Positions 15,001 through 42,012 of a DNA stretch of 64,000 nt are shown piece by piece; position 1 is the stretch's first letter, and every line of letters begins with the position of its first letter. The notes beneath the pieces are model-generated. The model was not told the DNA's origin. It searched no databases and worked only from the letters and a program-made list of their open reading frames with translations. The translations under genes were made by a program, and so were the position numbers. Origin of the DNA: a virus (Duplodnaviria > Heunggongvirae > Uroviricota > Caudoviricetes); the IMG/VR virus record IMGVR_UViG_3300027798_000013, one strand, 5' to 3'.

Positions 15001-17222
15001 CCGTTAGCATTAATTGGCTGAGCTGAAAATGCTTTAATTGTTAAAACGTCAGTAGCTAATAAATCTGTAGCAAATTTAATTTGTTTGTAATTAACCGCAT
15101 CGACCAGAGTCCATTTAACGGAATCGACTCGAGTTCCGTTGACAAATATTCTAATTTCTAAATCAATTAAATTTGTTTTATTATCATAGATGTCTAATGG
15201 AAAATTATTTGTTAGGTTAGAATCCTTGTAAATCCTAATGCCGGGCTGATACCGTGTTACCTTGCTGGTTTGCCAACCATTGACATACGTGGTATCATTA
15301 TTAAATTCTATCTTAGATAAAAATCCAGTGTTAACAGACTTAGTAACTAATACTTCGTTTTCTTTATAATCGAAAGTGTCCGATACTAAGTCAAACGAAA
15401 ATAGAATATCGCCTACATTGTTAATGTTTTGATAACTTAGACTGAATCCAAGAACACTGTCAGCTGTAGTTGTTCCTAATTTGTAGGAAAATATTTTGTT
15501 ACCAACAAATCGTGAACCCGAGTACGAAGAAAAACTTTGTTTATTTTCGTCAAACATGTCAAACAACGGTGATTGATTCACTGTTGTTTTTTGTTGCCCC
15601 AATGCCCACGTGGTTTCATTGTACCAAAATGCTTTGCCTTGATATGTTTGGCCTTGCCTTATTAAAATATTTGAATTTTTAACAGGTTTTTCGTCAAGCA
15701 ATAACCGTATCTGCGGCACGCCTATTCCTGAATTTTCAATATTAACAAACGTAACTTTATAAACATTATTTTTTACTAGTATATCCGCATCAGCAAGAAA
15801 CACAATACGCATACCTTCTGCCAAGTCAACTCCATCGATATTGTATCCGGCAGTACCTTCAATCGTACTGAACACATCTGTAGTGTAAGAGTCTACTAGA
15901 TCAACATCGTTGGTCGACAGTACGCCAAAGTTAAAAAGTTTTAAATCTGGGTTAAATTCAATAATAGGTCTTGTTGCACGGCTAGTTTGGTCGAAATCCG
16001 CAAGTTTATTATTAAATGCCGCGCTGTCGTTGATTGTATCTTTGTGGAACCATCGATTGTATCGTGACCACGGATTTCTATCTTTGCTTGCTTTGTTGAT
16101 AGTGACATAATCTAATTTGCCAGCATAGGAACTTGCGGCCGCAAATGGATATTGGTCAAATAATGTTGAATCAAATGCCACAGCTCGATCTTCTGTGTAT
16201 GTACTAATAACTTCAAATATAGTAGTTGGAATTAAACTAATTGCCGTGCCAACGCCTTCAACATAATACTCACCGGTAGCGTAAGTTGCTGGCGTTACAT
16301 TGCCGCCAAATGATACTTTCATACCGTTGCTTAGTGAAGTGCCGTTTGATAGTGTGTAAGTTTTTTTACCTATCAAATCTTTTTCAAGATCAATGTAGGT
16401 GTTTTCTGTAATATCTAAAAACTTAAAAATAGAACCTAAGTTAGAATCACGTTCACTTACGTAGTATAAAGTATCGGGGCCAGAAATAGGAACTATAAAT
16501 TTAACTGTACCGCTTGTAACTCCAAAATTGCTTACATAACCTTCATCTGTATATCTATCTAACGGGCCCAATGTTCTAGCTGTTTTGATACTGAACGGTT
16601 CTCCGGGACTATTAATTTCAAAATAGTAAGTTTGCCCTCTATATAAGGTTACTACTGGATTTCTATCCAAACCGTTTGGCGTAAACAAATACTCTTTTTG
16701 TTGAGTCGCACTTGTGCTAAGTTCTACTTTAAAGGTGCTTGAAACATTTAACTGCTGGCCAACAATATTAACAACATCTGGACCATATGGCAACCAATAA
16801 TATTGTTGGAAATTAATAAATTTATCCCAGTCAATGTGTGGATCCCAGCTGTAAAATTCTTGGCGGTTTAATCGCTCGTGATTGTCAACGTTGCCGCCAA
16901 ACACTTTTAATTGATTAATAAAATCCTGATAATCTTTAAAGAAGTCCACATTACCAGTAGAATCATTTACTACCACTGCTGGCTCTAACTGATAGTTTTG
17001 TCTTACAGTTGTTGGAGCATTGATATAAATGTCTTTGGCGCTGGCCGACTTGGCATTTTTACGGCCGATGTAACCGTTTACTTTTTTGGCTGTGCCTTTT
17101 TGTGTTAGCTGATCTATTGTTGCCTGTATGAATTTTCTATTATCGTCTGTACGATAATATTTAGGCAGTAAATCTACTGTAGAAAAATTGTTAGAACCTG
17201 TTGGATTTGTGTTATCAGACAT
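1..17222 (-). CDS. Giant (at least 5,740 aa, 3'-truncated by window edge) baseplate wedge/structural protein in the gp7 position, with an FG-GAP-like beta-propeller and many inserted beta-rich modules
   Basis: ATG at 17222 overlaps the gp6 stop (ATGTCTGA) and reads MSDNTNPTGSNNFSTVDLLPKYYRTDDNRKFIQATIDQL. The same frame is coding wherever spot-translated and at the window edge (DEIEVFVGGYDT). The ORF track lists no terminated ORF in this frame, consistent with no stop in the window. Confidence 0.85.
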   Translation of the reverse strand, partial: MSDNTNPTGSNNFSTVDLLPKYYRTDDNRKFIQATIDQLTQKGTAKKVNGYIGRKNAKSASAKDIYINAPTTVRQNYQLEPAVVVNDSTGNVDFFKDYQDFINQLKVFGGNVDNHERLNRQEFYSWDPHIDWDKFINFQQYYWLPYGPDVVNIVGQQLNVSSTFKVELSTSATQQKEYLFTPNGLDRNPVVTLYRGQTYYFEINSPGEPFSIKTARTLGPLDRYTDEGYVSNFGVTSGTVKFIVPISGPDTLYYVSERDSNLGSIFKFLDITENTYIDLEKDLIGKKTYTLSNGTSLSNGMKVSFGGNVTPATYATGEYYVEGVGTAISLIPTTIFEVISTYTEDRAVAFDSTLFDQYPFAAASSYAGKLDYVTINKASKDRNPWSRYNRWFHKDTINDSAAFNNKLADFDQTSRATRPIIEFNPDLKLFNFGVLSTNDVDLVDSYTTDVFSTIEGTAGYNIDGVDLAEGMRIVFLADADILVKNNVYKVTFVNIENSGIGVPQIRLLLDEKPVKNSNILIRQGQTYQGKAFWYNETTWALGQQKTTVNQSPLFDMFDENKQSFSSYSGSRFVGNKIFSYKLGTTTADSVLGFSLSYQNINNVGDILFSFDLVSDTFDYKENEVLVTKSVNTGFLSKIEFNNDTTYVNGWQTSKVTRYQPGIRIYKDSNLTNNFPLDIYDNKTNLIDLEIRIFVNGTRVDSVKWTLVDAVNYKQIKFATDLLATDVLTIKAFSAQPINANGFYEIPINLQNNPLNIDMKYFTLGEVADHLNSIVDNIQENFVGVVSGSNNLRNLGNVTAYGTKFIQHSGPASLALYHITSEQNNIVRALEKSRDDYGKFKHSFLLAAQQLGTDTNVVAQVDLILKKLSANKTKKSSYYFSDMVPFTGKKITEYTVVDNRIRTYPLTTVYSNTELSNKAVSIYLNGVQPPVGVQLLYGIDYIFTTDGYVSINNTVGLVDGDKLTVFEYDSTDGCFIPPTPTKLGLWPKFKPKIYVDYSLLTPRTMIQGHDGSQTLSYGDYRDNIILELEKRIYNNLQIQYDSDIFDIYDIIPGYYRNSDYSLDEINRVLALGFYKWANLVGRDFSKQVGFDKNSTFTYNYRGHSAPDGRELPGYWRGIFRWVYDTDKPNICPWEMLGISEEPSWWQEVYGPAPYTSNNTIMWKDLEEGAVKAPGMPAEYRKQFARPDLLNHLPVDESGNLVSPVSARLATGVFNTDNQGSHIFGDVAPVESAWRRSSYYPFSILIASMILKPAHTLATCLDKSRTVRNLCGQLVYKDTGLHVKPRDILLPSIYSSSSRVYTSGIINYLIEYLVNNNVSYYDEYQYNLDNLDIKLSYRVSGFTSKNNFNLILDSKNPASTGNVFVPPENYKIFYNSSSPIAKLSYSGIIITKLSEGYEIKGYSLSEAFFKYFAPRQELGPRINVGGISASFVNWTAGKTYSVGQTVFYNGKYYRTLYAVTPDVFDSTAFAALPELPVTGGVTSVFRNTWDSSSINVLPYGTVLTSVQQVVDFILGYGEYLKAQGFIFEDFNNNLENVSNWSTTAKEFMFWTTQKWSTGQDTWQQWIPNQAVGYGIIVKYQDIYYRALQNIPAQPMFQETNYVKLDGLNTVGSAVISLSPAANSLSFSSVLSVAEDINNPFNEYEIYKVDGSSLTPADLNSNRQGNIVTFSPDDNGTIYNASFYLVQKEQVLILDNTTVFNDVIYNPESGYRQERIKVAGFISSEWFGGFEVPGFVFDRADIKQWSSWADYALGDIVSYQGYYYSAVRFLPGTNEFESNNWMQIKKPQPSLLPNWSYKAGQFEDFYNLDQANFDTGQQKIAQHLVGYQKRQYLSNIIQDNISEFQFYQGMIKEKGTQNSLNKLFDVLSAENKESLTFYEEWGIRVGQYGASQAYEAVEFLIEQPDLTKNPQGFYLTIQPEASSNYNVNISANDVYVKPRGYNAEPWPVNNAQKLFLRTPGYVQPTDQVFQINTLDTLLTTDVTPFNTGMYIWVTFEKTSWNIYRFSSSDISPSDATYNSSNKTITIFSNNQLDSSLLGQYVALKQIAFAGFYKVVDVNLQDFTIEAPLYKPGPEWPTAETISANLEIFRLYSVRAPSIDNANDIIKAFTSPGDKIWIDKDSTNKWAELELTSVYSNTEIRKPYPTSDMAHGRIVVTNLEGTVAAVSTQVGEVIVYSKQGARWIFKQIIKRPFMAQNVFGQNPNALDTFANSMAMSPDGEFLAIGSPRVGLLATKQLPNGNVVCDQSALNSSNLLQGAVSLYQKTTYDEYLLLFTIASGDNTANQQFGSSLAFGNGKLFIGSIGPTGSGSQATIYELRYVAVEGVATVASNLNADGDDVNAIATVVYDGGLSSTTASTNDLVFDGGTALPIENTSDRWLLTKPGISIANGTSYGFGSDISVTNDNSILVIAAPLAGNVYIYSLDSNKNYNLIQTVAGPSQVVSNPTTTDGVFSFNGNTLSGGAGFRTTTDKFLRTTISSVTTTGGSGAGLVVDVIVNSQGVLQTVTVRDPGQNYKINDVITVVNPLGTGGVLALTWATSVFNSGVQYKIGDTVVYGGNYYVAILSTINNSVTNATYWSPLTFASSTTGIDIVTTTSRSGSNLKVKLAHTTTPGALPGSIIIPVTNVTNFELGQLIFSSTVPTAFASNTYITQVNSVTYSGVIQNNVLTVSKITNGLNPVVAEIIGSITDTTLTIEQLAGANIIPGMQLSGTGISGDYVIVSGSGTIWTISNAVTISTREIKATLYETIKPGMQLGNPALDTASSFTAIVTTKGTANLTGATTTLLGGIASMFNATITGITLTFDAITAGDPVTPGMVLTGAGVTAGTKILYGSGNSWIVNTSQTVASPITITGTLVSASISGFILTFTAFSGATLTPGTVLTGGTVIAGTTIVGGSGTSWTVSLSQTSTCTTATVPNGTISGNTLTFTASTGSPVEIGMVLLGGTVLDGTVITGGSGTTWYVNISQSTTCTQATSQAFLLNAEIKDTTLTFTDNTGIGLFAGMVLSGSGVVSGTYVVSGSETEWVVSAIQTVVPTTITGTTVVLTANTPSSGLILLGQRLSGNGVTSGTAIIASGSGTGKEGTYYVSPAQTVNSFAATSQYIITNPVIIDGITITGAAISGTALTFSGQSGGNVRVGMLVTGSNVLTGTKIVSGSGGSWQVSVTQAVVSTTLLLTGTGRGGIGTYIIDQELTVGLTPTVATGLTINIPLAATLTGSAEVTSLKISNQGFGYAIGDTVTFNRGGGQITMSISTVTANGSIAVATIGDGSVTKDSTQFGQSVAISKNGDYVAIGSPLQSDLQENEGRVYILSNNSAVGNTYREYQQILNPRQQSGDLFGFNIKFANDYKTLLIYSPGADSFDLTTFDTTETIFDSGSLVFKEISQNSGRIDVYDRYSKNWISGESLYTGGSNADGFGQSFAASDNTILVGAPHETEISENISGNPIIEINSGKVYSYEKFAGSFSWTPVHKQTDLIDIKKIKQAFLYNKVSNKLIRYLDIIDPSLGKIAGSAEQEISYKTFYDPAIYTVGSSSVNVDIGNSWQNKQAGKLWWDLRTAKFIDNHSENLIYRNSTLNMLASGASIDIYEWVETQLTPTEWKIQADTDAGLVNNISGTPLYTDSYSVKQYFNAFNNAFENTYYFWVKNKKLIPNVADRNISANAVSELISNPRGQGYPFIALTGKNSFSLINCQNLLNGDNVILGIEYWIIEQSDQNIHAQWKLIDNSTSTKLPAVIEEKWFDSLCGKDQADRPVPDLNLPAKLRYGIESRPRQGMFVNNFEALKQFVERVNLVLINEQIVGQRNISKLESYDAEPQLFTGVFDTIVDTDAELRIVSVSTAKSAVISPVIVNGSIVDVVIQSGGSGYKSSPTITIKGSGVGAKLKAIIDVAGVITGAEIISKGKGYTNSATLQIRPFSVLVRSDSVANGNWSIYSYVTNTITGIQSWVRVKTQSYDVRNYWNKIDWYATGFNQFSIIDFAVDVFAELGTVDPEIGQTVKVRISGSTGWQLLLCYSKSTSVDWTQRFQVIGIENGTLQLSSKLYSFVNNNIGYDSSIYDNTGYDYTASKELRILLNSLKDDILIDTLKSEYLNLFFAGIRYAHTEQTYIDWAFKTSFVKAQHNVGKLKQTITYKNDNLENFQDYIAEVVPYRTTVREFVSNYTSIDNSSSVITDFDLPAIFGSGNNSVIKTFVKDGKITGDRSEIQTYPWKHWLSNVGFQITSITIIDNGSGYVTAPIVRIISNSGSGAVAQAFIANGKVNRILLVSSGTGYLSAPTIIIDGGSSASGSTAKAIAVIGKSNVRSSFIKMKFDRTTNTYYTIQLNETHSFSGTGNKTKFSLVWAPDVKIGQSTVKVDNALVLRDNYTLTTVKSTAKGYTTYSGFITLKTAPALGSTLTVEYLKDIDLLNASDRIQYYYNPTTGQLGKSLDQLMTGVDYGGVIVTGLDYSVSQGWGSIGFMQDLWDSYENTYSDYAVTISNETVISRSFTLPYMPEVFTNINVYYSKIFNTSFTSDGSQLIYTLPSAYTFVDAIQIYLNKIVAGLTVNVTATSTEQISVTQLLTGFNYLKTASTTNLSLGKAIKIISGSFGGFITNLTYYVVAIIDSTTFKVGASVGGSEFTVAGGTGNMVIQYATSSNYLTAPTASLFSGLAFQFNGAVFGGLATGVTYYVKDIVSPTLFTVSATIGGSVFPVSSAQGTMPLSQVAAAPAATVNLNNITGLKVGDLANCSIPGAIADGTSIKQILTATNQVILTNILYGDILAGIQINFVRSLAAPIDFRYLTSVSLQLSEPPSAGAIINVTTSFDPVRIDDENFAKQWVITGTEAGTNIVTTITPITFNIGDTIGFTGTLFGNIQPATTYYIKEIPTNRTFKISATLAGPEYILVSASGSMIGRSTGNPNAVMSTYIADGTAPIITIPSTYTLIAGDVIIFRKSSSDGAVPISASDFDTALDGGTLEYNSATGLNPDDIIVDGDGFVTTNTSGAPEEVVPGQVVDSVAIKVFDRPSDGSATVKVLNYVADGVNKKFSLEQFPNSQDAVYIKLNSTVLATGIDYYLDYPNKQVVLRNVPTNGSIVTLHSFGFNGTNILDADYFVADGKTKEFITKAPYVNTDFNYLVYLDGVAINPTLFKTDNTYDSPNRIGFRFSIAPTKFQTLNYLIVLGNQQTYAVFKNEKLATNGSSTYTLSNTIGSSVPLETSVLVRANQQILQGPRTTYFTISTNQYTYTLDILSVQPYSVNTADLTVYADGILLELNTDYIVDTSAVSISINKKVYSKYKGKRLIINVKSDQDYYIVGNTITFSQAYGLSDYVEVVSAYKHDILQIQRTRTKATNNLQFSSVNADYYRYVGVLGGRIELPSTILTEPQLWVTKNKLLLINGVDYRVNPDLTSITLGTPPAINDEFEAIIFAGESVKAGISYMQFKDMLNRTVYKRLNLYKQNELIQDLYYYDKEIFVKDAGNFDKPNPAINKPGVVEINGERIEYFTVKNNTTLGQLRRGTLGTGVPTVHGTGSKVQDIGPSETIPYVDTFKTEQITIDNYTTKLIIPLSFVPGKTTSSWSATPASLKLFDNAVIQKFVSKTGTGPYLVTFAVPQQSYTPALNKLLLVANNSNTKYNGYHTVSSSNISNSITIVPQSVNPFVPVGSTIDVTFAISTQTTAPVTGIYYVISGSNPIEYNGAWLCSASTSTSITLSIPNNYGVFKVLPSLIKSTHTITVSYDTDPGVYSTKLITTLSASTYGEADEIEVFVGGYDT

Positions 17223-20200
17223 TTGTCGATCCGTAAGCTGAGCTTGTTAATGCTTGTATTGCTACCGCATTTGATTTTAATGTAATATTACCTAAACTAT
17301 TGATGAGAGAAGATGTGATGGACGGAACTATGTCAATATTATCGATAGTTGCACCGCTTATAAAGATTTCGTCAGGGCCTGCTGTGATTTCAAATAAACC
17401 CCCAAACGACAATGTGCTACCCGATGGTACTATAACAAAATTGACTATGTTGGGGCTAAGTTGATTTGTGACATACGCGGCCATTTCTGTAAAATAAAAT
17501 GTATCTCCGAATTCCCAGTTACCCAGTGCAAAAAAGTTATTGATGGCGGCTAGTATCTGTGTCTTGACATCATTATCGGATATCACCATTGATGAATTAA
17601 CGATCACTTTGAATTGTGCTTGCAAATTCTTTTCAGCAGTTGCGCCAAACAGCACTTTGTATTTCACAGGATGATAAATTATTTCGTCAGATATAGATTT
17701 AATTAGATTCAATTTGGGCGCAATTAAATTATTCAATTCGTCACTGCTTGGTGGCAAAGGTTTAGCTGTTATTACACCAGTCAACCATTGTCTAAATAAG
17801 GTATCATAACTATTTGTCAACACAAATACATCCATAATATTACTAACTCCTGGATCTATTCTGTGTGTGTCGCTGGCGTTATGTGTATATTGAAATTTTA
17901 ATTTATCTCTACCTAAAAATACTCTATAATCTAAACTTGGCGTTAATTCAGAAGTAGCACTAGTTAATTTTGCCACTGTATCAATATCTATAAAATAAAA
18001 ATATTGCCCGTCAACATATTGCGAAAATGTTTTAGGTTGGGTTGGCAAAATAACCACTATACTATTAGAGTTGGCAACATATCTATAATCCTCTTGGCCC
18101 GTTTCAACTTGGTATTTTTCTAATACAACAAAGTAAGAAGATAGCAGTGCGCTGGCCGCTGGTATTGCAACATTGTCAAAAGTTTCAGGATCCGTTACCA
18201 CACCTGTATTGTTCTTATCGCTAAATGTAACCACAAGTTTTTTAGTATCGATGTATCCATCTAAACCAATATACTGACTCACTACTTTTAAATTTTGATC
18301 AAATGTAAACGGTTCGGACAAGCCCGGCTGGGTATTGATACTTAAAATATTAATCGAATCAGTTAATAATTTTCCAGAAACATTGTCGTAAACACGCTCT
18401 GTACTATCAAAATAAAATCTTATTTGGAGGTTACTTTCAAATATATAACGTAATTTTCTTGTTGTTATGGTATATGTTACAGTATCTGTGACAAATAATA
18501 ATAACCAGCTGGAATCCAATAACAAGTTGCTAGTGTCGCCTGTTTTATTCAGACTGAAATCATCTGTTGAATTTAAATTTGACTGGAAAATAATTTGCCA
18601 TGACTGAGTGTTTATATCAAAACGCAGGCCGAATGGAAGGTTACTTGTGATAAGATCAATCATTGTTGTGATAACTGACTTGTCTATCACTGTTCGCCAT
18701 ACCGGAATAACACGAGTGGCAATTGCTTTACTTGGTATTATGTCATTTAATGATACTGGGCCTTCGCCTGATATTAAAATTCCTGTTCCGGCCGAAGTGC
18801 CGTCGCCAATTAAAGAAACAATCTCGGCCCATATATAACTACTGGTGTTTGCTTTGACAGGAATTGTTTTAGGTATTAACGCATTATTATTAGATCTGTC
18901 AAACACTTGTGCCGCACCGCTTGCAGACAGCGGAGCTTCAAATTTTATCAGTGACCCAACACCTGCATACTTTAAGGCAGTGGTCGTAAAACTGGAAACC
19001 AAATACGGCTTGCCGTCTGTGGTTGATCCAAAGTAGCCGCTTGAAAAATTAGTATTATCAACAGTATTATACCATGCAATATCCAGTAAAGTGGTACTGA
19101 TTTTTGTGAACTTTGAATAATAGAAATTTCTTAAATTTGCATCTTTTAACAGGTCAAACACAATGTTATAAACTACTGCCTGTGCGTCTGTTTTGCTGGC
19201 GTAGGTAAACGTAGTATCTGTTGAATAGGTGTCCTGATAAAGGATACCGTCGTCTGCAAACAAATTAGTTTTGCTATATTTGCCTGTAGGGTCAATTAAA
19301 TCAAGATATCTACTAACACCACTTGAACTTCTGTTAACAGCTTTAATTTTTATAATTTCTTGACTTACTGCAAGAGGACTGATATTATAATCCTCGCCTG
19401 TGATCATTCTGTTTTGTGTGTAATAAGTTGCGGGCGCATTGGCTTTTACATTGTCGTTACTTTCAGTGGGTGCGCTGTTGTCTACACTTGTTTGTAATGA
19501 CAATGTGAGTGTGAGTTGTTCTTGTTGACCGGTGTTTGAAAAATAAGGTATGGTCATTGTAACCCCGCGGATATCTTGAGGGTTAATAGTATACGATAGT
19601 CCGTTGCTGATACGATAGTACACATTAAATGTGCCTAACGGAAGTGTTCCAAAAATTCCGTCACTAAACGACAATGCCACACGGTCGCCGGCTCTTGTGA
19701 TAACTTTATAGATATTTTTAATTGATTTATTTAAACTGTTATAGATAATATTATTACCTACTAAATTAGGAACAGGAGTCCACAATTCCGATTCGATACC
19801 AGATTGGTCTATCTTGTATAACCATAAATCAGTATCATTGATATCGGGAGAATCTAATTCAACAATTTCATTAGTACTCGGTTGATTAATTGTAAAGTTG
19901 CCTTGATTTAATGTGCCTTGCACAAAATTAAAGAAAAATCCAGTATTAATACTGGCCGCGCCTTGGCCATCATTTTTATAGACACATGCCATACGATTGG
20001 CAATCTTGGGAGATTCTTCGTAAATGTATCCTTGGCCAGCAAACGTGGTACTGGTAACTTCAAAATCCATCTTGGAGCCGTTGACTGTCTTGCTAAAGCC
20101 GTAGATAGGAACTGCGGAGTTTGCTCCGTTGAATTTGTATTGTTCAGTTGGCGTGTTATAAACTGTTGCGCTGTCGCTTGGATTTCCAAATTGCTGGGAT

Positions 20201-26174: not shown

Positions 26175-27032
26175 ATGACAGCAAAAATCAATTACTTGAA
26201 CAACAAAGATATGCTTTTGGAAATACATAGATCTAAAAGCAGTTATTGTAGTTTTACCGATCCAAAGTTTCATCAATATGACTTAATTATACCCAGCACA
26301 GACAAGGTAAACATACGCACAGTTGCCGAGGCCAAACGCAATCAAGCCAAACGTATTGGAGATGCTGAGTATCAAAGGCGCAAAAAACTAGGTGAAAAAG
26401 TCAAACAAGCAGACTGCGAAGTAGACTATAAAAAAATTCAAAAGCTGGATTTGGTATTCAGGGTTATGACTTTTGACCATATTCCTCTGAACAGCACACG
26501 TAAGAAAAATCCCAAAAGTCTAGCTGACCACAGAGACAAGGTGAACTTTCCACCGTTCCAACATTGGAAGTTCAATGATACAGACGAACTAGTTTGTGTG
26601 GGTAAAAGCCACTGGAAGGGCACATTGGACAAGGGCCACTTTGATAAAGATGCTGGACAAATTACACCTACACTGGCCCGCATGATGATTAAACTGTGTG
26701 AACGATATGCTACCCGTGGCAACGTTCGTGGCTATACTTACAATGACGAAATGCGGGGACAAGCTATTTTACAGCTAACACAAGTGGGCTTGCAGTTTGA
26801 TGAAAGCAAGAGTGACAATCCGTTTGCTTATTTTACTGCGGCTGTGACCAACAGCTTTGTTCGTGTTATCAACATTGAAAAACGCAACCAAAACATCCGC
26901 GATGATATACTAGAAATGAATGGTATGAATCCATCATACTCACGTACCGGCGCTGGAGAACATGCGGCCGCACTTAAACGTCATGCAGAGGACACAACTA
27001 ATGAATCAACCAATGACACACCAACTGTTTAA
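26175..27032 (+). CDS. gp55: Late-transcription RNA polymerase sigma factor, T4 gp55-like
   Basis: NYLNNKDMLLEI, NVRGYTYNDEMRGQAILQL and FDESKSDNPFAYFTAAVTNSFVRVINIEKRNQ motifs; syntenic with gp47/gp46; start reassigned to the ATG with an RBS. Confidence 0.9.
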   Translation: MTAKINYLNNKDMLLEIHRSKSSYCSFTDPKFHQYDLIIPSTDKVNIRTVAEAKRNQAKRIGDAEYQRRKKLGEKVKQADCEVDYKKIQKLDLVFRVMTFDHIPLNSTRKKNPKSLADHRDKVNFPPFQHWKFNDTDELVCVGKSHWKGTLDKGHFDKDAGQITPTLARMMIKLCERYATRGNVRGYTYNDEMRGQAILQLTQVGLQFDESKSDNPFAYFTAAVTNSFVRVINIEKRNQNIRDDILEMNGMNPSYSRTGAGEHAAALKRHAEDTTNESTNDTPTV

Positions 27033-28029
27033 AAAAGTTGCCTGTTTCACAGACATTCACTTTGGATTAAAATCCAACAGCAGTGTACATAACCAAGACT
27101 GCGAAGATTTTGTGGATTGGTATATTGCCAAAGCAAAAGAGGAAGGGTGTGATGTTGGCATCTTTATGGGAGATTGGCATCACAATCGCAACAGTCTTAA
27201 TATTACTACTATGGACTATAGCCTTAGAGCCCTTGAAAAACTGGGACAGGCTTTCGATAAGTTTTATTTCTTTCCTGGCAACCATGATCTTTATTACAAA
27301 GACAAGCGGGACATCCACAGCGTTGAATTCGGAAAGTATATTCCTGGCATCACTGTGGTACATGAGCCCGTTACTATTGGTGACGTTACTTTATGTCCTT
27401 GGCTCGTTGGGGACGAATGGCGAAGCATAGGCAAGAAAGGCGGCAAGTATATCTTTGGTCACTTTGAATTGCCCAGCTTCTTTATGAACGCAATGGTACA
27501 GATGCCGGATCACGGTGAGATTGCACTGGATAGTTTTAAAGGTTATGAGCTGGGATTTAGCGGACATTTCCACAAACGTCAGCAACAAAAGAACATGATT
27601 TACATTGGCAATGCTTTCCCGCACAACTATGCAGACACATGGGATGATGACAGAGGCATGATGATACTGGAGTGGGACGGCGAACCTCAATATCACAGCT
27701 GGCCTAATCAACCTACGTTTCGTACAGTTACACTGAGTCGTTTGATTGATGAAGCTGATACCATTATCAAACCCAAACAACATTTACGTGTTGCACTGGA
27801 TATTGATATCAGCTACGAAGAAGCTAGTTTTATTAAAGAAAAGTTTATTACAGATTATGCTATTCGTGAACTTACTTTGATTACAGAACGCAAAGAAGTT
27901 GAAATGAATACCAATATAGATATCCAGTCGTTTGAATCCGTAGACCAGATTGTCTCCAATCAGATTGTAAACATTGACTCAGACACATATAATAAGAATA
28001 CCTTGCTGGAAATTTATAATAGCCTATGA
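27001..28029 (+). CDS. gp47: Recombination endonuclease subunit gp47 (Mre11/SbcD metallophosphoesterase)
   Basis: FTDIHFG, FMGDWHH, PGNHD, FGHFE and FSGHFH phosphoesterase motifs; start is ATG 27001 (GAGGA upstream) or 27013. Confidence 0.93.
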   Translation: MNQPMTHQLFKKVACFTDIHFGLKSNSSVHNQDCEDFVDWYIAKAKEEGCDVGIFMGDWHHNRNSLNITTMDYSLRALEKLGQAFDKFYFFPGNHDLYYKDKRDIHSVEFGKYIPGITVVHEPVTIGDVTLCPWLVGDEWRSIGKKGGKYIFGHFELPSFFMNAMVQMPDHGEIALDSFKGYELGFSGHFHKRQQQKNMIYIGNAFPHNYADTWDDDRGMMILEWDGEPQYHSWPNQPTFRTVTLSRLIDEADTIIKPKQHLRVALDIDISYEEASFIKEKFITDYAIRELTLITERKEVEMNTNIDIQSFESVDQIVSNQIVNIDSDTYNKNTLLEIYNSL

Positions 28030-29804
28030 TAAAGATTAAAGAATTAACTGTTAAAAACTTCATGAGTGTGGGCAATCAAACTCAAGGAGTTGCTTTTGAC
28101 AAAGCCAACCTAACACTTGTGCTGGGTGAGAACTTGGATCAAGGTGGTGATGACAGTGGTAGCCGTAATGGTACTGGAAAAACAACCATTGTGAATGCAC
28201 TGAGTTTTGCCCTGTTTGGTAATGCTCTTACCAACATTAAAAAAGACAATCTTATCAACAAGATCAACAACAAAAATATGTTGGTCACATTGAGCTTTGA
28301 AAAGAATGACATCAACTATCGCATCGAGCGTGGGCGCAAACCTACACTCATGCGTTTCTTTGTGGATGATCACGAACAACACGCAGAAGAAACAGATGAC
28401 GCACAGGGCGACATGCGTGAAACACAGAAAGACTTAGATGACTTGCTGGGCATGAGTCATGACATGTTCAAGCATATCGTTGCGCTTAACACTTATACAG
28501 AGCCGTTCTTAAGTATGCGGGCCAATGACCAACGTGCTATTATTGAGCAGTTATTGGGCATTACAATTCTTAGTGAAAAAGCAGAAACACTCAAAGAACT
28601 AATTAGAACAACCAAAGATCAAGTGCTACAAGAAAGCGCAGATATAGAGGCCGCTAAAAAGTCCAATGAGAAAATTCAGCTTAGTGTTGACAGTTTAATC
28701 ACAAGACAAAATGCTTGGAATACTCAACACGAAGCAGATATCGAAAAAACTGCACGGGCTATTATTGAACTTGAAAGTGTGGACATTGAAGCTGAGCTTG
28801 CCGAGCACAGCGAGCTAAAACTTTTTGAAGAAAAGACTGCCAAGCTGAAAAGTCTCGCTAAGGAGCGGGCAACGCTAGACAGCGCAACAGCGCAAGCGGA
28901 GCGAAGCGTAAAAAAATACGCTGACGAGCTTGCTAAGTTGAAGGACAAAAAATGCCACGCTTGTGAACAAGAACTGCATGATCACAAACATGAAGAAATG
29001 AGCGCCACTGCTCAACAGCACTTGGCGGAAGCCAACCGATACAACAACAAAGTGGCCGCGGACCTTGCTAAAATCATGAAAGAGATCGCCGCTATTGGCG
29101 AAGTTGCTGGGCGTCCCAATACCTATTATGATACTGTAGAGGCCGCACTGAAACATCAGAACAATTTGAAAACTCTTGAAACACAATTGACTGTGAAAGC
29201 AGGCGAAGCGGATCCTTATCAGGAGCAAATTGACGAACTGCGTCACACGGCCATGCAGGAAATCTCATGGGACACAGTCAACACTCTCAACACACTAAAA
29301 GACCATCAGGAGTTTTTGTTAAAACTATTGACCAGCAAAGATTCGTTTATACGCAAAAAGATCATAGATCAAAACCTAGCTTATCTCAACAATCGCTTAA
29401 CGTATTATCTTGACAAGATGGGATTGCCGCACACAGTGGTATTCCAAAATGACTTGACCGTTGAGATAACACAGCTGGGGCAAGACTTGGATTTTGACAA
29501 TCTAAGTCGAGGAGAGCGTAACAGACTTATATTGGGTTTGAGTTGGAGTTTCCGTGACGTGTGGGAAAGTCTATATCAGCAGATCAACCTGTTGTTTGTG
29601 GACGAATTAATCGACAACGGCCTGGATGCGTCGGGTGTTGAAGGTGCGTTGGCAGTGCTTAAAAAGATGAGCCGTGAACGCAAAAAGAACATCTTCTTGA
29701 TCAGTCACAAGGATGAATTGATTGGGCGGGTAAACAACGTGCTTAAAGTCATTAAAGAAAATGGCTTTACCAGCTACGCAAATGATTTAGAGGTAACAGA
29801 ATAA
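28026..29804 (+). CDS. gp46: Recombination endonuclease ATPase subunit gp46 (Rad50/SbcC)
   Basis: KNFMSVGN, Walker A NGTGKTT, coiled coil with CHAC zinc hook, LSRGE signature, Walker B LLFVDE and ISH. Confidence 0.95.
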   Translation: MIKIKELTVKNFMSVGNQTQGVAFDKANLTLVLGENLDQGGDDSGSRNGTGKTTIVNALSFALFGNALTNIKKDNLINKINNKNMLVTLSFEKNDINYRIERGRKPTLMRFFVDDHEQHAEETDDAQGDMRETQKDLDDLLGMSHDMFKHIVALNTYTEPFLSMRANDQRAIIEQLLGITILSEKAETLKELIRTTKDQVLQESADIEAAKKSNEKIQLSVDSLITRQNAWNTQHEADIEKTARAIIELESVDIEAELAEHSELKLFEEKTAKLKSLAKERATLDSATAQAERSVKKYADELAKLKDKKCHACEQELHDHKHEEMSATAQQHLAEANRYNNKVAADLAKIMKEIAAIGEVAGRPNTYYDTVEAALKHQNNLKTLETQLTVKAGEADPYQEQIDELRHTAMQEISWDTVNTLNTLKDHQEFLLKLLTSKDSFIRKKIIDQNLAYLNNRLTYYLDKMGLPHTVVFQNDLTVEITQLGQDLDFDNLSRGERNRLILGLSWSFRDVWESLYQQINLLFVDELIDNGLDASGVEGALAVLKKMSRERKKNIFLISHKDELIGRVNNVLKVIKENGFTSYANDLEVTE

Positions 29805-30022
29805 TGAATATGGATCAAGCCGCTGTCTGGTTAAGCGCCAGTATTTTAATAATGTTGGGTTTTGTAATTGTGGTAGCTGGTGCTGTTGTTATCAACAATA
29901 TCATACATAGATTCTGGAAACCCATACGTATTTTTACATCGGACAGTTGGAATCTAAACCCTCCCATACAGTATCCGTCACAAGAAGATCCGGTGCTGAC
30001 CAAGGAACAACCTAACAAATGA
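29804..30022 (+). CDS. Small single-pass membrane protein
   Basis: Hydrophobic stretch AAVWLSASILIMLGFVIVVAGAVVI; TAATG coupling to gp46 (start may be the second ATG). Confidence 0.65.
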   Translation: MNMDQAAVWLSASILIMLGFVIVVAGAVVINNIIHRFWKPIRIFTSDSWNLNPPIQYPSQEDPVLTKEQPNK

Positions 30023-30261
30023 TTCCACAGGATGAAGAACTACACTCGCAGATCATGCGGGCGTTTAATGAGTACTTCAAAGCAAATCAGCGTTGGATCA
30101 ATCGAGGCACACGCCGTGCTGGGGAACAAACACGATACTGGTTAGCCCAGATTCGTATCCTGTCACGTGAAAGGCGAAAACTAATACAAGACTGGCGTCA
30201 CGCAGTGGACGCTACAAAGGCTCAAAAGAAGCAGGGGACCGGAGACGCAGACACTAACTAG
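30019..30261 (+). CDS. Small basic helical hypothetical protein (possible nucleic-acid binding)
   Basis: AAGGA RBS, overlap with the upstream stop, Arg/Lys-rich sequence. Confidence 0.7.
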   Translation: MIPQDEELHSQIMRAFNEYFKANQRWINRGTRRAGEQTRYWLAQIRILSRERRKLIQDWRHAVDATKAQKKQGTGDADTN

Positions 30262-30264
30262 TGT

Positions 30265-30693
30265 ATGTCTTGGACTTATGAAAATACTTTAATAGAAATC
30301 CTGCCCGAAGAATGTGTGGGTTTCGTATATCTCATAACCAACACAATCTCTGGACGCATGTATATAGGCAAAAAATTAGCCAAGTTCGCCAAAACATCCT
30401 ACCGGGTGGTCAAGCTCAAGAACGGAACTAAGAAAAAAAAGAAAATACGGTCAAAAATTGATTCGGATTGGCGTGATTATTACGGTTCAAATCTAGAATT
30501 AAATGTGGACGTATTGAAATTAGGCAAAGAAAACTTCACTCGAGAAATCCTATACTACTGCACATCCAAGGCGCAATGCTCTTACTTCGAGGCCAGAGAA
30601 CAATTCACCCGCAAAGTTCTAGAATCAAAAGACTATTATAACGGCCAGATATCTGTCCGTGTGCATGGTTCACACATACTCAAAGGCCAATAA
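30265..30693 (+). CDS. Stand-alone GIY-YIG family nuclease
   Basis: GFVYLITNTISGRMYIGKK (GIY-YIG), YYGS, conserved Glu helix CSYFEAREQF and YYN; Lys-rich insert; 142 aa with no C-terminal DNA-binding domain. Confidence 0.85.
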   Translation: MSWTYENTLIEILPEECVGFVYLITNTISGRMYIGKKLAKFAKTSYRVVKLKNGTKKKKKIRSKIDSDWRDYYGSNLELNVDVLKLGKENFTREILYYCTSKAQCSYFEAREQFTRKVLESKDYYNGQISVRVHGSHILKGQ

Positions 30694-31169
30694 TTCAGGC
30701 TGTTTAACTGCCAAATAAGCCCGCACAGGCGACCATATTGTGCCCTTACAGCTGGATCACGGATCGCAGTGAATGGAATTCCTTACCTTGGCGGAAGGGT
30801 TTAAAATCACTATCGTAACAGACGCGGATTGGATATGCCTATAACCAGTTTGATTTTAAAGAGAAAATATTTAGAAAGGCTAAAAGAGGGAGAAATACCC
30901 GCGGCTATTGGCATGTTAACGTATGCTCATAGACCTGCCGTTGTAATTAAGACTCAGCTCGTGGTACCGGACAACCGCCACTGTAATGCTGTAACGTTAA
31001 GTGAACTGCTCAACTCAGATAATGTTCATTTTTAGCCCGTCAGGGCTAAGTGTGACTACACAATCTAGATAATATTTACAGTGCTTCGCACTTGATTACT
31101 ACACAGTAAGAAACAGAAAAAGCTCGAGCGAAAGCGAAGAGCAGATGTACGCAGTACATCTTTCAATAC
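30694..31169 (+). ncRNA. Putative large structured non-coding element (ncRNA and/or structured DNA origin), family unknown
   Basis: The only long intergenic gap in the window, with more than 10 hairpins, e.g. TTTAAAATCA/TGATTTTAAA (30800-30809/30851-30860), TTAGCCC-GTCA-GGGCTAA (31032-31049) and AGATGTAC-GCA-GTACATCT (31143-31161). G.U pairs favour the plus strand. Confidence 0.6.
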
Positions 31170-31177
31170 TATAAATA
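31170..31177 (+). promoter_or_regulatory. Perfect T4 late promoter TATAAATA (probably leaderless transcript)
   Basis: TATAAATA 7 nt before ATG 31185, with no SD in between. Confidence 0.8.
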
Positions 31178-31184
31178 ACATATC

Positions 31185-31994
31185 ATGAAGATTTTAGACA
31201 TAATAACTGAAGCCGCAACTCCTGTTACTGCTGAAGCAGTGGCACTGGCTTGGATAACAGCAAACCCTGACCAAGCTGATGCACATCGGGCGGCACTAGA
31301 AAAGAAATGGACTGCTGGCAACAGTGCCATGCGATTTTTTAAAACCACTAATATATGGTTGCCTACTATAGAAGCTGGTGCCAAAGTATATGCTTTGGAA
31401 CAAATTGCTGGACAGCCCCTTGCACAATTCAAACAAGGCTATCCTGAGTTTGCCAGCTACACAGAAGAGCAAAAAGCAATATGGATCAGCAAGGCAAGAG
31501 ATGAAATATTTGGCATATGGGTCGCTCAGTATGCCACACAAGCTCTGATACGATTTGCATTTGGATCTGCTTCATTACTGGGAACATTTTTACGCACATT
31601 TGGCGGAGCGGCTGGCACTGTCATTACTAAAAAACCTGGCATTGCCGGTAAATTGATTGAAGAAGGTATAGTTGCGGCCGCACAGGTATTTCTATCAAGC
31701 CCGTATGGAACCAAAATGATAAAAGAATATATTGGTCCTGCATTTTTCAATGTGCCAGGTGCAATAGTTACTGGTAGTTGGGATTGGTTAGTTAAGTGGA
31801 TTGAAGAGTGGACCGGTATCAATATCAATAAAACGGTCACACCTAATATTACTGCCGCAGTGGACGTGGCATCAGCCGCAAGTACCAATGGCATAAAATG
31901 GTCCGATCCTGCGCAGGACGCTAAAGACTATGCTGATTTTGAAAAGCAGACACGATCAAGAGGCATGACAGGTAAAATGCCAGGTCAACTTTAA
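31185..31994 (+). CDS. Hypothetical late protein, candidate internal head/ejected protein
   Basis: 269 aa under a late promoter; N-terminus MKILDIITE resembles a capsid-targeting peptide; Gly/Ala-rich amphipathic core. Confidence 0.7.
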   Translation: MKILDIITEAATPVTAEAVALAWITANPDQADAHRAALEKKWTAGNSAMRFFKTTNIWLPTIEAGAKVYALEQIAGQPLAQFKQGYPEFASYTEEQKAIWISKARDEIFGIWVAQYATQALIRFAFGSASLLGTFLRTFGGAAGTVITKKPGIAGKLIEEGIVAAAQVFLSSPYGTKMIKEYIGPAFFNVPGAIVTGSWDWLVKWIEEWTGININKTVTPNITAAVDVASAASTNGIKWSDPAQDAKDYADFEKQTRSRGMTGKMPGQL

Positions 31995-41251: not shown

Positions 41252-41346
41252 TAAATACATAGTAATGATCCACACAGGGTGGATTTTATGCGGATATCCA
41301 ACCGCGTACAGCCTAGAACGCTGTTATTTCTTAAGGAGAAAATAAA
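41252..41346 (+). promoter_or_regulatory. Late promoter TAAATA plus about 85-nt three-hairpin 5' leader
   Basis: TAAATA 41252-41257; stems at 41267-41285, 41287-41308 and 41308-41324; then TAAGGAG RBS. Confidence 0.65.
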
Positions 41347-42012
41347 ATGGGACGTCCTTTACATAAAAAATTCTTTGGTAATACCAATACTGCTGGTGTC
41401 GGCGGCGAGGGTGTTGCAAGTGCAACAGCTCCAGCTGGCACGTTAGCATCATTAGTCAACGGTACTTACGCAATTCCAGGCGCAAGCATCACTGCACCGC
41501 AAATCCAAGGCGGCGTAAAACCAACACTAAATGTTGTGGTAACTGGCACAACAACCTACACAGTAACAGTAGTCACAGCAGGCTCAGGTTACACCGCTGC
41601 TCCTACAATTACATTTGCTGGTACCGTTGCAGGTGGCTCTGGTAGTGCTACTCCAATAGCAACATTGACAGCAACAGTTGGCGATGCCATTGTGTGTCAA
41701 GGCATCACAGCTGGTACAACAAACCGTACAACTGGTAACGACATTATCAAACAAGTGTCAAGTCGTCGTTATCAAATTCAGACTCAAGACGGTACAGCAA
41801 TCTGCGCACTAAAAGCAAGTGCTCCAACAGCGGCAGGTGAGATGGCCATTGTTGCTGTTGATGCTTCCGCTGGTACATATTATGTTACTAAGTTGACTAA
41901 AAATAGAGCCACATTAATAGTTGGTACTGGCACAGTTTTTACTAGCGGTTCGTCAGTTCCTTGGACTTTTGGATCAGCAACAGCAACAGTTTGCCAAATC
42001 CCAAGTGCGTAA
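41347..42012 (+). CDS. Putative virion structural protein (head decoration/fibre candidate)
   Basis: Own late promoter and strong RBS directly after the capsid gene; Thr/Ala/Gly-rich with TVVTAGSGYTAAPTITF module. Confidence 0.65.
   Translation: MGRPLHKKFFGNTNTAGVGGEGVASATAPAGTLASLVNGTYAIPGASITAPQIQGGVKPTLNVVVTGTTTYTVTVVTAGSGYTAAPTITFAGTVAGGSGSATPIATLTATVGDAIVCQGITAGTTNRTTGNDIIKQVSSRRYQIQTQDGTAICALKASAPTAAGEMAIVAVDASAGTYYVTKLTKNRATLIVGTGTVFTSGSSVPWTFGSATATVCQIPSA

What the first reader, a model, noticed from the sequence alone, without database searches (positions are those of the whole stretch)
30694..31075. 5' part of the gap folds like a multi-domain plus-strand RNA
Seen stems: GCACA/TGTGC (30723-30743); CCTT..AAGG (30781-30798); the 10-bp TTTAAAATCA/TGATTTTAAA helix enclosing GATTGG/CCAGTT; GGG-AGAAATA-CCC (30888-30900); GCATGT-TAAC-GTATGC (30911-30926) within CTAT/ATAG; GTGG..CGG/CCG..CCAC (30961-30981); TGAAC/GTTCA; TTAGCCC-GTCA-GGGCTAA; GTGT/ACAC. 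Several stems close only with G.U pairs on the plus strand (they would be A.C on the minus strand). Inference: selection acts on a plus-strand RNA, possibly a new large phage ncRNA or ribozyme class.
Basis: partly seen in the sequence, partly recalled or inferred. Interest (0 to 1): 0.75.

Follow-up and report, generated by a model that had tools for sequence, protein, structure and literature searches.

The report
Full-length Polynucleobacter-1 phage RNA
The gene-free stretch behind a small nuclease gene of this uncultured T4-like phage encodes a real, roughly 465-base, triply knotted non-coding RNA. Only its first third is catalogued (Rfam Polynucleobacter-1, function unknown), and its tail shows the same short sequence twice for a reader that is still unknown.

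Summary
The stems are there, and comparison with relatives shows they are selected on the plus strand. In 41 relatives (57-88% identical), 90.7% of cells in my structure pair, against 35-41% when partners are slid; 74 of 109 pairs show changes on both sides; G.U outnumbers A.C by 309 to 80.

It is not a wholly new class. Positions 30718-30860 match Rfam RF01718 (Polynucleobacter-1, Weinberg 2010) at 84.9 bits against a cut-off of 37. As that paper noted, the RNA lies downstream of a PSSM2_218-like gene, here a 142-aa GIY-YIG nuclease.

What I did not find in the literature:
- It has three pseudoknots.
- It has two tandem modules, each showing a 7-nt box (AGAUAAU). The box varies between relatives but is identical in both copies in 114 of 114 loci.

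Function is unknown. My best guess is a trans-acting scaffold or decoy for a two-site reader. The nuclease looks like a neighbour, not a partner.

Earlier agents of this scan reached the same reading on other DNA (over 100 genomes).

The parts
30697..31161 (+). Whole conserved structured RNA, about 465 nt: from the conserved AGGC just after the nuclease stop codon to the terminal hairpin
   Evidence: nhmmer finds the whole element on the + strand in about 65 of 80 and later 139 related loci.
30708..30714 (+). 5' leader strand CUGCCAA of pseudoknot PK0; it pairs with the P3 loop at 30788-30794 and lies upstream of the Rfam model start
   Evidence: RNAduplex in all 41 sequences: own pairs average -9.65 kcal/mol, cross pairs -5.93. 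Many compensatory variants, e.g. UCGCCAA/UUGGCGA, AACGGUU/AGCCGUU, UACAGUA/UGCUGUA.
30718..30860 (+). Domain 1 = Rfam RF01718 Polynucleobacter-1, with P1 30723-27/30739-43, P2 30752-58/30762-69, P3 30780-84/30795-99, P4 30804-09/30851-56, P4a 30814-15/30820-21 and P4b 30827-32/30845-50
   Evidence: cmscan 84.9 bits (cut-off 37), E 1e-16, model positions 1-141. Helix covariation.
30788..30794 (+). P3 loop strand UUGGCGG of PK0
30878..30939 (+). Domain 2: invariant GGC/GCC closing pairs (30878-80/30937-39), the GGG/CCC hairpin (30888-30900) and the long hairpin H5 (30905-14/30923-32)
   Evidence: H5: 10 of 10 pairs with changes on both sides, 96% paired. GGC/GCC never covaries, so it is unproven.
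30916..30922 (+). H5 loop UUAACGU, the 5' strand of pseudoknot PK1; it pairs with 30994-31000
   Evidence: 7 of 7 pairs with changes on both sides, 99.6% paired.
30940..30991 (+). H-type pseudoknot: H6 30940-44/30971-75 (GUUGU/ACAAC) crosses H7 30955-58/30988-91 and H7b 30961-64/30978-81
   Evidence: H6 is 98.5% paired, with 19, 17 and 5 sequences changed on both sides. H7 is 96.7% paired. H7b shows AU/UA swaps.
30994..31000 (+). 3' strand ACGUUAA of PK1; also the start of tandem module A
30995..31026 (+). Tandem module A: CGUUAAGUGA - 6 nt - CAACUC - box - GUU
   Evidence: Read from the sequence and from the 100-sequence consensus. Its flanks covary in step with module B.
31017..31023 (+). 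Twin box 1, AGAUAAU
   Evidence: Identical to box 2 in 114 of 114 loci, across 7 variants. Normalised MI with box 2 is 1.0, 1.0 and 0.86.
31031..31050 (+). Hairpin UUUAGCCC-GUCA-GGGCUAAG between the boxes
   Evidence: 97.6% paired, 3 pairs with changes on both sides.
31046..31076 (+). Tandem module B: CUAAGUGUGA - 5 nt - CAAUCU - box - AUU; the period to module A is 50 nt
31067..31073 (+). Twin box 2, AGAUAAU
31080..31092 (+). Hairpin AGUGC-UUC-GCACU
   Evidence: 99% paired, 3 pairs with changes on both sides.
31093..31121 (+). Variable A-rich linker
   Evidence: No conservation in the alignment.
31122..31142 (+). Hairpin GCUC..GC-GAAA-GC..GAGC with a GNRA loop
   Evidence: 92% and 99% paired, with changes on both sides.
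31143..31161 (+). Terminal 8-bp hairpin AGAUGUAC-GCA-GUACAUCU followed by UUUCA: the likely 3' end (weak terminator or protective hairpin)
   Evidence: 98% paired, 7 of 8 pairs with changes on both sides. It does not meet the strict terminator scan.
31170..31177 (+). TATAAATA, identical to the T4 late-promoter consensus, 8 nt before the ATG at 31185 of the next gene; not part of the RNA, it marks its end
   Evidence: Sequence. TAAATA follows the terminal hairpin in 46 of 49 distinct relatives.
30265..30693 (+). Neighbouring gene: a 142-aa GIY-YIG-only nuclease (PF19835), homolog of cyanophage P-SSM2 PSSM2_218; its stop codon lies 4 nt before the RNA
   Evidence: Pfam 107 bits. Present directly upstream of the RNA in nearly all relatives. 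BLASTP against PSSM2_218 gives 38% identity, E 2e-17.

Best explanation
Window 30697-31161 (+) is the gene for the full-length form of the Polynucleobacter-1 RNA, a ~465-nt non-coding RNA of a large clade of uncultured T4-like phages.

Shown:
- It is conserved on one strand in a fixed place, after gp47-gp46, small ORFs and a small nuclease gene, and before a late-promoter-driven gene.
- It folds into several domains held by three pseudoknots: leader with P3 loop; H5 loop with 30994-31000; H6 across H7.
- Its 3' part holds two ~30-nt tandem modules. Each presents the same 7-nt box, and the box differs between phages but never between the two copies.

Inferred:
- It is made as the 3' end of the rightward early/middle transcript, because no promoter of its own was found.
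- It ends at the terminal hairpin, just before the next gene's TATAAATA.
- It acts in trans as a rigid scaffold or decoy that offers two identical single-stranded sites to one two-site reader encoded elsewhere: a dimeric protein, or two copies of (or two sites on) a nucleic acid that co-varies with the boxes.
- The nuclease gene upstream is a positional neighbour, not a partner. Nuclease genes of different families occupy this slot beside the conserved RNA gene.
For: Identity:
- RF01718 at 84.9 bits against a cut-off of 37. 12 relatives score 64-119 bits.
- The upstream gene is the PSSM2_218 homolog named in the 2010 supplement.

Reality and strand:
- 139 related loci carry the element on the same strand.
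- 90.7% of cells pair, against 35-41% when partners are slid. 74 of 109 pairs change on both sides. 0 of 500 shuffles reach the observed values.
- G.U 309 against A.C 80.
- No codon periodicity, and indels are not in threes.

Pseudoknots.

Twin boxes:
- Identical in 114 of 114 loci, with 7 variants.
- At least 28 state changes on the RNA tree.
- They covary only with each other, not with any third column of the RNA.

End of the RNA: the terminal hairpin covaries, and TAAATA follows it in 46 of 49 relatives.

Nuclease independence:
- In L136 a PDDEXK nuclease (PF24608) replaces the GIY-YIG gene; L152 has a 397-aa GIY-YIG+NUMOD3 form.
- Cultured phages keep the small GIY-YIG gene without any RNA behind it.
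- The box variant is no better linked to nuclease residues than to gp46 residues.
Against: - No expression data.
No complementary or third copy turned up in the RNA, in the flanking 3-4 kb of 114 loci, or in the 64-kb window.
- The terminal hairpin lacks a proper U-tract.
- Folding energy is no better than shuffles.
- Many of the 'changes' of box state may be recombination of a few alleles rather than repeated mutation.
- Confidence 0.55 is for the whole statement: about 0.95 that this is a real plus-strand structured RNA of this family, and about 0.3 for the scaffold or two-site-reader mechanism.
Confidence: 0.55

Rival explanations
1. Self-processing RNA, or a decoy substrate. The two identical boxes would be twin cleavage or recognition sites, cut either by the RNA itself (a ribozyme) or by a sequence-specific endoribonuclease. 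One example would be a mimic of a host type III antitoxin repeat that soaks up an abortive-infection toxin. Cleavage would release the ~50-nt unit between the boxes.
For: - Two tandem ~30-nt modules with a 50-nt period resemble a two-unit repeat.
- The box varies between phages as a specificity element would.
- Size, pseudoknots and many invariant unpaired bases are typical of catalytic or tightly folded RNAs.
- From my own knowledge: phage-encoded pseudo-ToxI mimics are known (Blower et al. 2012).
Against: - No match to any ribozyme or antitoxin family in Rfam at E up to 10.
- Only two modules, embedded in a much larger conserved fold.
- No read data to show any cleavage.
- The spacing between boxes varies from 47 to 58 nt among relatives.
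Confidence: 0.12
2. Cis-regulatory element, which was the 2010 authors' tentative call. It would be either a leader controlling the downstream gene, or a 3' UTR that stabilises or insulates the upstream operon.
For: - Weinberg 2010 scored the motif as likely cis-regulatory.
- The RNA abuts the nuclease stop codon with a 4-nt gap and has no promoter of its own.
- It always sits between the same two gene blocks.
Against: - The next gene has its own TATAAATA after the terminal hairpin, only 8 nt before its ATG, so the RNA is not its leader.
- The downstream gene diverges fast or differs between relatives while the RNA stays.
- The upstream gene can be swapped for another nuclease family.
- 465 nt with three pseudoknots and twin boxes is far more than a stabiliser needs.
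Confidence: 0.12
3. Nuclease-RNA particle. The minimal GIY-YIG protein lacks a DNA-binding domain and would use the RNA, with the boxes as guides, to find its target.
For: - The nuclease gene lies directly upstream in nearly all ~130 loci.
- The protein is a catalytic domain only.
- The boxes are variable, like guides.
Against: - L136 has the RNA behind an unrelated PDDEXK nuclease. L152 has it behind a full-length GIY-YIG+NUMOD3 enzyme with its own DNA-binding motif.
- Hundreds of cultured cyanophages and other phages keep the small nuclease with no RNA behind it.
- The box variant shows no excess association with nuclease residues (top normalised MI 0.43, 0.17, 0.41, against 0.53, 0.30, 0.54 for gp46).
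- No box-matching site in the flanks or the window.
Confidence: 0.05
4. The selected object is DNA, not RNA: a replication origin, a recombination site whose 7-bp overlap must match in both copies, or the homing target of the neighbouring nucleases.
For: - Identity between two sites, whatever the sequence, is what recombinase overlap regions require (my own knowledge).
- Turnover of the nuclease slot suggests homing next to a conserved target.
Against: - Long-range and pseudoknot covariation with a strong G.U over A.C excess indicates a folded single plus strand.
- No recombinase gene lies nearby.
- There are no inverted arms around the boxes.
- Being a homing target is compatible with the element being an RNA gene, and secondary to it.
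Confidence: 0.05
5. Chance hairpins in an AT-rich spacer, with no function.
For: Folding energy z-scores of -0.8 and -0.5.
Against: Everything.
Confidence: 0.01

Closest known systems
Polynucleobacter-1 RNA motif (Rfam RF01718; Weinberg et al. 2010, Genome Biol 11:R31, PMC2864571)
   Same: - Window 30718-30860 matches the whole 141-position model at 84.9 bits.
- Same helices P1-P4.
- Same context: downstream of a PSSM2_218-like gene.
- Function unknown in both.
   Different: - The published motif has 141 nt and 16 examples. It was called possibly cis-regulatory and was 'not detected in any sequenced purified phage'.
- Here it is only the first third of a ~465-nt RNA.
- The RNA has a 5' extension that knots into the P3 loop, about 300 further nt with two more pseudoknots, twin-box modules, and a clear home in T4-like phage contigs.
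Large bacterial and phage ncRNAs of unknown or recently found function (GOLLD, ROOL, HEARO/omega RNA, OLE, raiA)
   Same: - Several hundred nucleotides, intricate conserved folds with pseudoknots.
- Often on phages or mobile elements.
- Found by comparative genomics.
   Different: - No sequence or structure match to any of their Rfam models.
- No tRNA neighbours.
- No IscB/TnpB-type partner.
- Twin co-varying boxes are not a feature of those classes, to my knowledge.
RNAs that present repeated identical sites to one reader (CsrB/RsmZ for the CsrA dimer; lambda nutL/nutR boxB for N; ToxI repeats for ToxN)
   Same: The same short element is shown more than once on a structured RNA. In nut sites and ToxI the element differs between relatives but matches within a genome.
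   Different: - Most box variants have no GGA core.
- No N-like or ToxN-like gene is nearby.
- There are only two copies, set in a large fold.
- This is an analogy of working principle only, not membership.
T4 seg genes beside stable-RNA genes (segB in the T4 tRNA cluster)
   Same: A free-standing GIY-YIG nuclease gene sits next to a conserved structured-RNA gene, and the nuclease slot shows turnover (short GIY-YIG, long GIY-YIG+NUMOD3, PDDEXK).
   Different: - The 142-aa form here is highly conserved (74-94% identity), has no DNA-binding domain, and is widespread in cyanophages without the RNA.
- Homing has not been shown.

Membership tests
Rfam RF01718 Polynucleobacter-1 | Covariance-model score at or above the curated gathering score over the whole model | tested here: met
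   84.9 bits against 37, model 1-141, E 1.4e-16. 12 relatives score 64-119 bits.
Rfam RF01718 Polynucleobacter-1 | Helices P1-P4 of the consensus are kept by compensatory changes | tested here: met
   P1 95% paired, P2 83%, P3 85%, inner P4 93-100%, P4b 100%; all show changes on both sides.
Rfam RF01718 Polynucleobacter-1 | Lies downstream of a gene of the GOS11034 / PSSM2_218 family (Weinberg 2010, Additional file 1) | tested here: met
   The upstream 142-aa gene aligns to PSSM2_218 at 38% identity, E 2e-17.
Group I intron | Interrupts a host gene whose exons join in frame, and matches the intron core (P3-P7 and the rest) | tested here: not met
   No Intron_gpI hit at E up to 10. The flanks are a complete nuclease ORF with its stop codon, and a gene with its own promoter and ATG.
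tRNA / tmRNA | Cloverleaf or tRNA-like domain with a tag reading frame | tested here: not met
   ARAGORN finds none in the whole window.
GOLLD / ROOL / HEARO / OLE / raiA large ncRNAs | Match to the family covariance model | tested here: not met
   No hit at the gathering score in the window, or at E up to 10 in 29500-31700.
queA RNA motif (RF03093) | Score at or above the gathering score; recurrence in relatives | tested here: not met
   18.1 bits against 52.6, E 2.6 in the window. No hit in 11 relatives.
RNA-guided nuclease system (omega-RNA-like) | Obligate co-occurrence of the protein and the RNA | tested here: not met
   The RNA occurs with a PDDEXK nuclease instead (L136). The nuclease occurs without the RNA in Melnitz, S-SRM01, P-HM1, ACP17 and P-SSM2.
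RNA-guided nuclease system (omega-RNA-like) | A variable guide segment with matching targets, or co-variation with the protein | tested here: inconclusive
   No own-variant enrichment in the flanks of 114 loci. No excess association with nuclease residues. Whole genomes could not be scanned.
Type III antitoxin RNA (ToxI-like) | Array of near-identical tandem repeats directly upstream of an endoribonuclease toxin gene | tested here: not met
   Only two modules, alike mainly in the conserved blocks. They lie downstream of a DNA-type nuclease gene, and the next gene has no family.

The most novel reading that the evidence does not exclude
The twin boxes would be two copies of one programmable seed that base-pairs with an unlinked nucleic acid, either a phage or host RNA or a DNA site. 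That partner would co-vary with the boxes from phage to phage. The RNA would then be a new kind of large, pseudoknot-scaffolded, two-site guide or sponge RNA of T4-like phages, not a protein-binding platform. The evidence allows this: the boxes change in step at positions 1, 2, 5 and 7, with no cis partner and no link to the neighbouring nuclease. The evidence does not show it.
Probability: 0.15. Interest if true: 0.85.

Novelty: new variant of a known kind. Interest (0 to 1): 0.6.

Why it matters
RNAs of several hundred nucleotides with intricate, pseudoknotted, strongly conserved folds are rare. Those that have been solved turned out to be ribozymes, guides or unusual assemblies.

Here an obscure 141-nt motif from 2010 proves to be the head of a ~465-nt RNA carried by hundreds of uncultured T4-like (often jumbo) phage contigs. 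The work gives three things:
- A home for the motif in phages.
- A testable architecture with three pseudoknots.
- A sharp handle for experiments: two boxes that must stay identical.

Finding what reads the boxes would probably reveal a new phage-host or phage-phage mechanism. It also corrects the motif's tentative cis-regulatory label.

Tried and rejected
- Folding-energy z-score: not significant on either strand. I judged it uninformative, not refuting.
- blastn of the gap against 50,697 phage records: no match.
- RF01718 in the nearest cultured phages by gp46 (PA5oct, Phosso, Atu_ph07): absent.
- Consensus-derived DNA patterns for seed-like members: 0 hits in genome and viral collections. 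An earlier strict pattern found only L021 and a chance hit, L078.
- A 3'-domain pattern in 185,579 genomes: 23 hits, of which 4 are real, and all four are phage contigs binned into MAGs. So I could not confirm bacterial, island-borne copies.
- queA RNA similarity: chance.
- RNAalifold helix 31015-20 with 31063-69, joining box 1 to the flank of box 2: rejected. It rests on the palindrome UCUAGA and breaks in the GCAUAAU and GAAUAAU variants.
- RNAalifold long-range helices 30767-70 with 30982-85, and 30995-98 with 31132-35: only one-sided changes, and they compete with covarying helices.
- Search for a partner of the boxes: the 13-mer complement with GGG opposite CUC/UCU gives nothing beyond chance in the window; the plain 7-mer gives 20 against 10.7 expected, mostly in coding repeats; no own-variant enrichment in flanks; no third covarying column.
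- Readings of the box as a codon plus stop codon (like T4 gene 60 take-off and landing sites, 50 nt apart), as NAU codons of queuosine tRNAs, as a -10 hexamer, or as a CsrA site: considered, but no ORF leads into the boxes and no evidence supports any of them. A minus-strand late-promoter look-alike beside box 2 is not conserved.
- PDB sequence search with the nuclease: only a weak GIY-YIG intron protein (3r3p, E 0.06).

Full report
**What is there**

The finding lies in a 491-nt gene-free gap (30694-31184) of a T4-like phage segment. In order along the + strand the segment holds:
- gp47/SbcD-like, 26962-28029.
- gp46/SbcC-like, 28026-29804.
- Two small ORFs.
- A 142-aa GIY-YIG-only nuclease, 30265-30693 (PF19835, 107 bits).
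- The gap.
- A 269-aa ORF with no family, 31185-31994.
- A baseplate-hub gene on the other strand.

The window has no tRNA or tmRNA, and no whole genome is held for it.

**Check of the observation**

On that criterion alone the finding would have been dropped.

Comparison with relatives says otherwise. A gp46 query brought 80, and later 77 more, related viral contigs with gp46 66-97% identical. A profile of the gap finds the whole ~490-nt element in 139 loci, always on the gene strand and in the same place.

I aligned 41 distinct sequences, 57-88% identical to the window (A1), and counted pairs for a structure of 109 pairs in 23 helices:
- 90.7% of cells form standard pairs, against 35-41% when the 3' partners are slid by 1-3 columns.
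- 74 pairs have changes on both sides.
- The covariation score is 0.391, against 0.05-0.09 for the slid controls.
- None of 500 column shuffles reaches the observed values.

The region is non-coding: variability shows no 3-base periodicity (0.236, 0.214, 0.216), only 287 of 1246 gap runs are multiples of three, and the longest stop-free stretch ranges from 29 to 100 codons.

Stem by stem:
- Conserved with covariation: GCACA/UGUGC; CCUU/AAGG; the inner six pairs of the '10-bp' helix; GAUUGG/CCAGUU; the long CUAU..GCAUG hairpin (all ten pairs change on both sides); the outer GUGG/CCAC; UUAGCCC/GGGCUAA.
- Weaker: GGG/CCC (78% paired).
- Not conserved: the outer pairs of the 10-bp helix, the inner CGG/CCG, UGAAC/GUUCA (58.9% paired, no double change) and GUGU/ACAC.

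**What it is**

Rfam identifies 30718-30860 as a complete Polynucleobacter-1 RNA: RF01718, 84.9 bits against a gathering score of 37, E 1e-16. Twelve relatives score 64-119 bits.

The motif was described by Weinberg et al. in 2010 from 16 examples, with unknown function, and was scored as likely cis-regulatory. Their supplement says most examples lie downstream of a gene family with possible homology to PSSM2_218 of cyanophage P-SSM2, and that none was found in a sequenced purified phage. PSSM2_218 is indeed a homolog of the nuclease gene here (38% identity, E 2e-17). The context therefore fits as well. In the searchable library only that one paper mentions the motif.

**What goes beyond the catalogued motif**

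*(a) A 5' extension.* A leader strand, 30708-14 (CUGCCAA), pairs with the P3 loop, 30788-94 (UUGGCGG). A 5-7-bp duplex is found in all 41 sequences, with many compensatory versions. Own pairs average -9.65 kcal/mol and cross pairs -5.93. With the conserved AGGC at 30697-700, the RNA starts about 4 nt after the nuclease stop codon.

*(b) About 300 further conserved nucleotides.* They contain:
- Hairpin H5, 30905-14 with 30923-32.
- A pseudoknot between its loop, 30916-22, and 30994-31000: seven pairs, all with changes on both sides, 99.6% paired.
- An H-type pseudoknot in which GUUGU (30940-44) pairs with ACAAC (30971-75) across the stems 30955-58/30988-91 and 30961-64/30978-81.
- Hairpins at 31031-50, 31080-92 and 31122-42 (the last with a GAAA loop).
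- A terminal 8-bp hairpin, 31143-61.

After the terminal hairpin comes TATAAATA (31170-77), identical to the T4 late-promoter consensus, 8 nt before the next ATG. TAAATA follows the hairpin in 46 of 49 distinct relatives.

No sigma-70-like promoter precedes the RNA on its strand, and the terminal hairpin fails the strict terminator rule. I therefore infer, but have not shown, that the RNA is the 3' end of the rightward early/middle transcript.

*(c) Twin boxes.* AGAUAAU occurs at 31017-23 and again at 31067-73.
- Across 114 loci with both copies readable there are seven variants: AGAUAAU, GGAUAAU, AGAUGAU, GAAUAAU, GGAUGAU, GCAUAAU and GAAUGAU. A few more appear in partial hits. The two copies are identical in every locus.
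- On a tree made from the rest of the RNA the box state changes at least 28 times (21 at position 1). Part of this may be recombination of alleles.
- The box columns covary with each other (normalised mutual information 1.0, 1.0, 0.86) and with no third column (next best 0.19-0.44).
- The three bases before each box often change in step too (CAA/CAA, CGA/CGA, GAA/GAA).
- The boxes belong to two ~30-nt tandem modules with a 50-nt period. Each has the end of a helix strand (..CUAA), then GUG(UG)A, a short spacer, CAA + YYY, the box, and RUU.
- The helix that RNAalifold draws between box 1 and the flank of box 2 depends on the palindrome UCUAGA and breaks in two variants. I take the boxes to be displayed, not paired.

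**Who reads the boxes**

I could not find out.
- The phage's own variant, or its complement, is not enriched in the 3-4 kb on either side in 114 loci.
- A 13-mer partner that could pair with both modules is absent from the window.
- Nuclease residues are no better associated with the box variant than gp46 residues, used as a control for phylogeny.

**The nuclease**

Its gene sits directly upstream of the RNA in almost all loci, but the link is not obligatory in either direction.
- In L136 the slot holds a PDDEXK nuclease (PF24608).
- In L152 it holds a 397-aa GIY-YIG+NUMOD3 enzyme, followed by a complete RNA.
- Identity classes of the GIY-YIG gene do not follow gp46.
- Homologs of the small nuclease occur in 509 cultured-phage records, mostly cyanophages, where they are often mislabelled 'NAD synthetase'. 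In Melnitz, S-SRM01, P-HM1, ACP17 and P-SSM2 there is no room for such an RNA behind the gene.

Turnover of nuclease genes beside a conserved RNA gene recalls T4 segB in the tRNA cluster (my own knowledge). I read the adjacency as positional.

**How it most likely works**

Shown: a conserved, plus-strand, triply pseudoknotted RNA of about 465 nt with two identical displayed boxes.

Inferred: it acts in trans as a scaffold or decoy for a two-site reader encoded elsewhere. I put that at about 0.3. Rivals:
- A self-processing RNA or decoy substrate, 0.12.
- A cis-regulatory element, 0.12. The intervening late promoter and the swappable neighbours argue against it.
- A nuclease-RNA particle, 0.05.
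- A DNA-level site, 0.05.
- Chance, 0.01.

**Relation to earlier notes of this scan**

After my own Rfam and covariation results I looked up earlier notes. Other agents had described the same 'extended Polynucleobacter-1 twin-box RNA' in more than 100 other genomes, with the same open question. One note places it on bacterial islands too. I could not confirm that: my genome-collection hits were all mis-binned phage contigs.

**Verdict**

The object is a new, much larger variant of a catalogued motif of unknown function. No cultured phage carries it, and no expression data could be obtained.

Noticed in passing
window 41268-41349 (+): A second catalogued RNA motif of unknown function, freshwater-2 (RF02980), scores 74.7 bits against a cut-off of 49.9.
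   Followed up: no
L136:6060-6581 and L152:6382-7575: The gene slot directly upstream of the RNA shows turnover of nuclease families: PDDEXK (PF24608) in L136, and a 397-aa GIY-YIG+NUMOD3 homing-type enzyme in L152, in place of the usual 142-aa GIY-YIG-only protein.
   Followed up: partly
window 30265-30693; L265, L266, L267: The small GIY-YIG gene family (cyanophage T4-GC 213, PSSM2_218, PHROG 447) is labelled 'NAD synthetase' in many phage records. Pfam places it in SegE_GIY-YIG.
   Followed up: partly
L251, L256, L238, L252 (genome contigs): Contigs filed under bacterial MAGs (a Bifidobacterium, a Flavobacteriales, a Bacteroidetes and an 'uncultured bacterium' bin) carry the RNA. L251 and L256 also carry this phage clade's gp46 and nuclease genes; L238 and L252 matched only the RNA. 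They look like phage contigs binned by mistake.
   Followed up: partly
window 31185-31994 and relatives: The late gene after the RNA keeps its first ~10 codons (MKILDII..) but diverges so fast that tblastn finds it in only two of 80 relatives (27% and 43% identity). It has no Pfam or PHROG family.
   Followed up: no
L260:7410-8425 (Sinorhizobium phage Phosso) and L259:7867-8531 (PA5oct): The nearest cultured phages by gp46 have unannotated gaps of about 1.0 kb and 0.66 kb a short way downstream of gp46. RF01718 is absent from both genomes. What the gaps hold was not examined.
   Followed up: no
window 183-19749: The 7-mer AGATAAT occurs 20 times in the window against 10.7 expected. Most copies lie in the giant repetitive ORF at the left end, presumably coding repeats unrelated to the RNA.
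   Followed up: no
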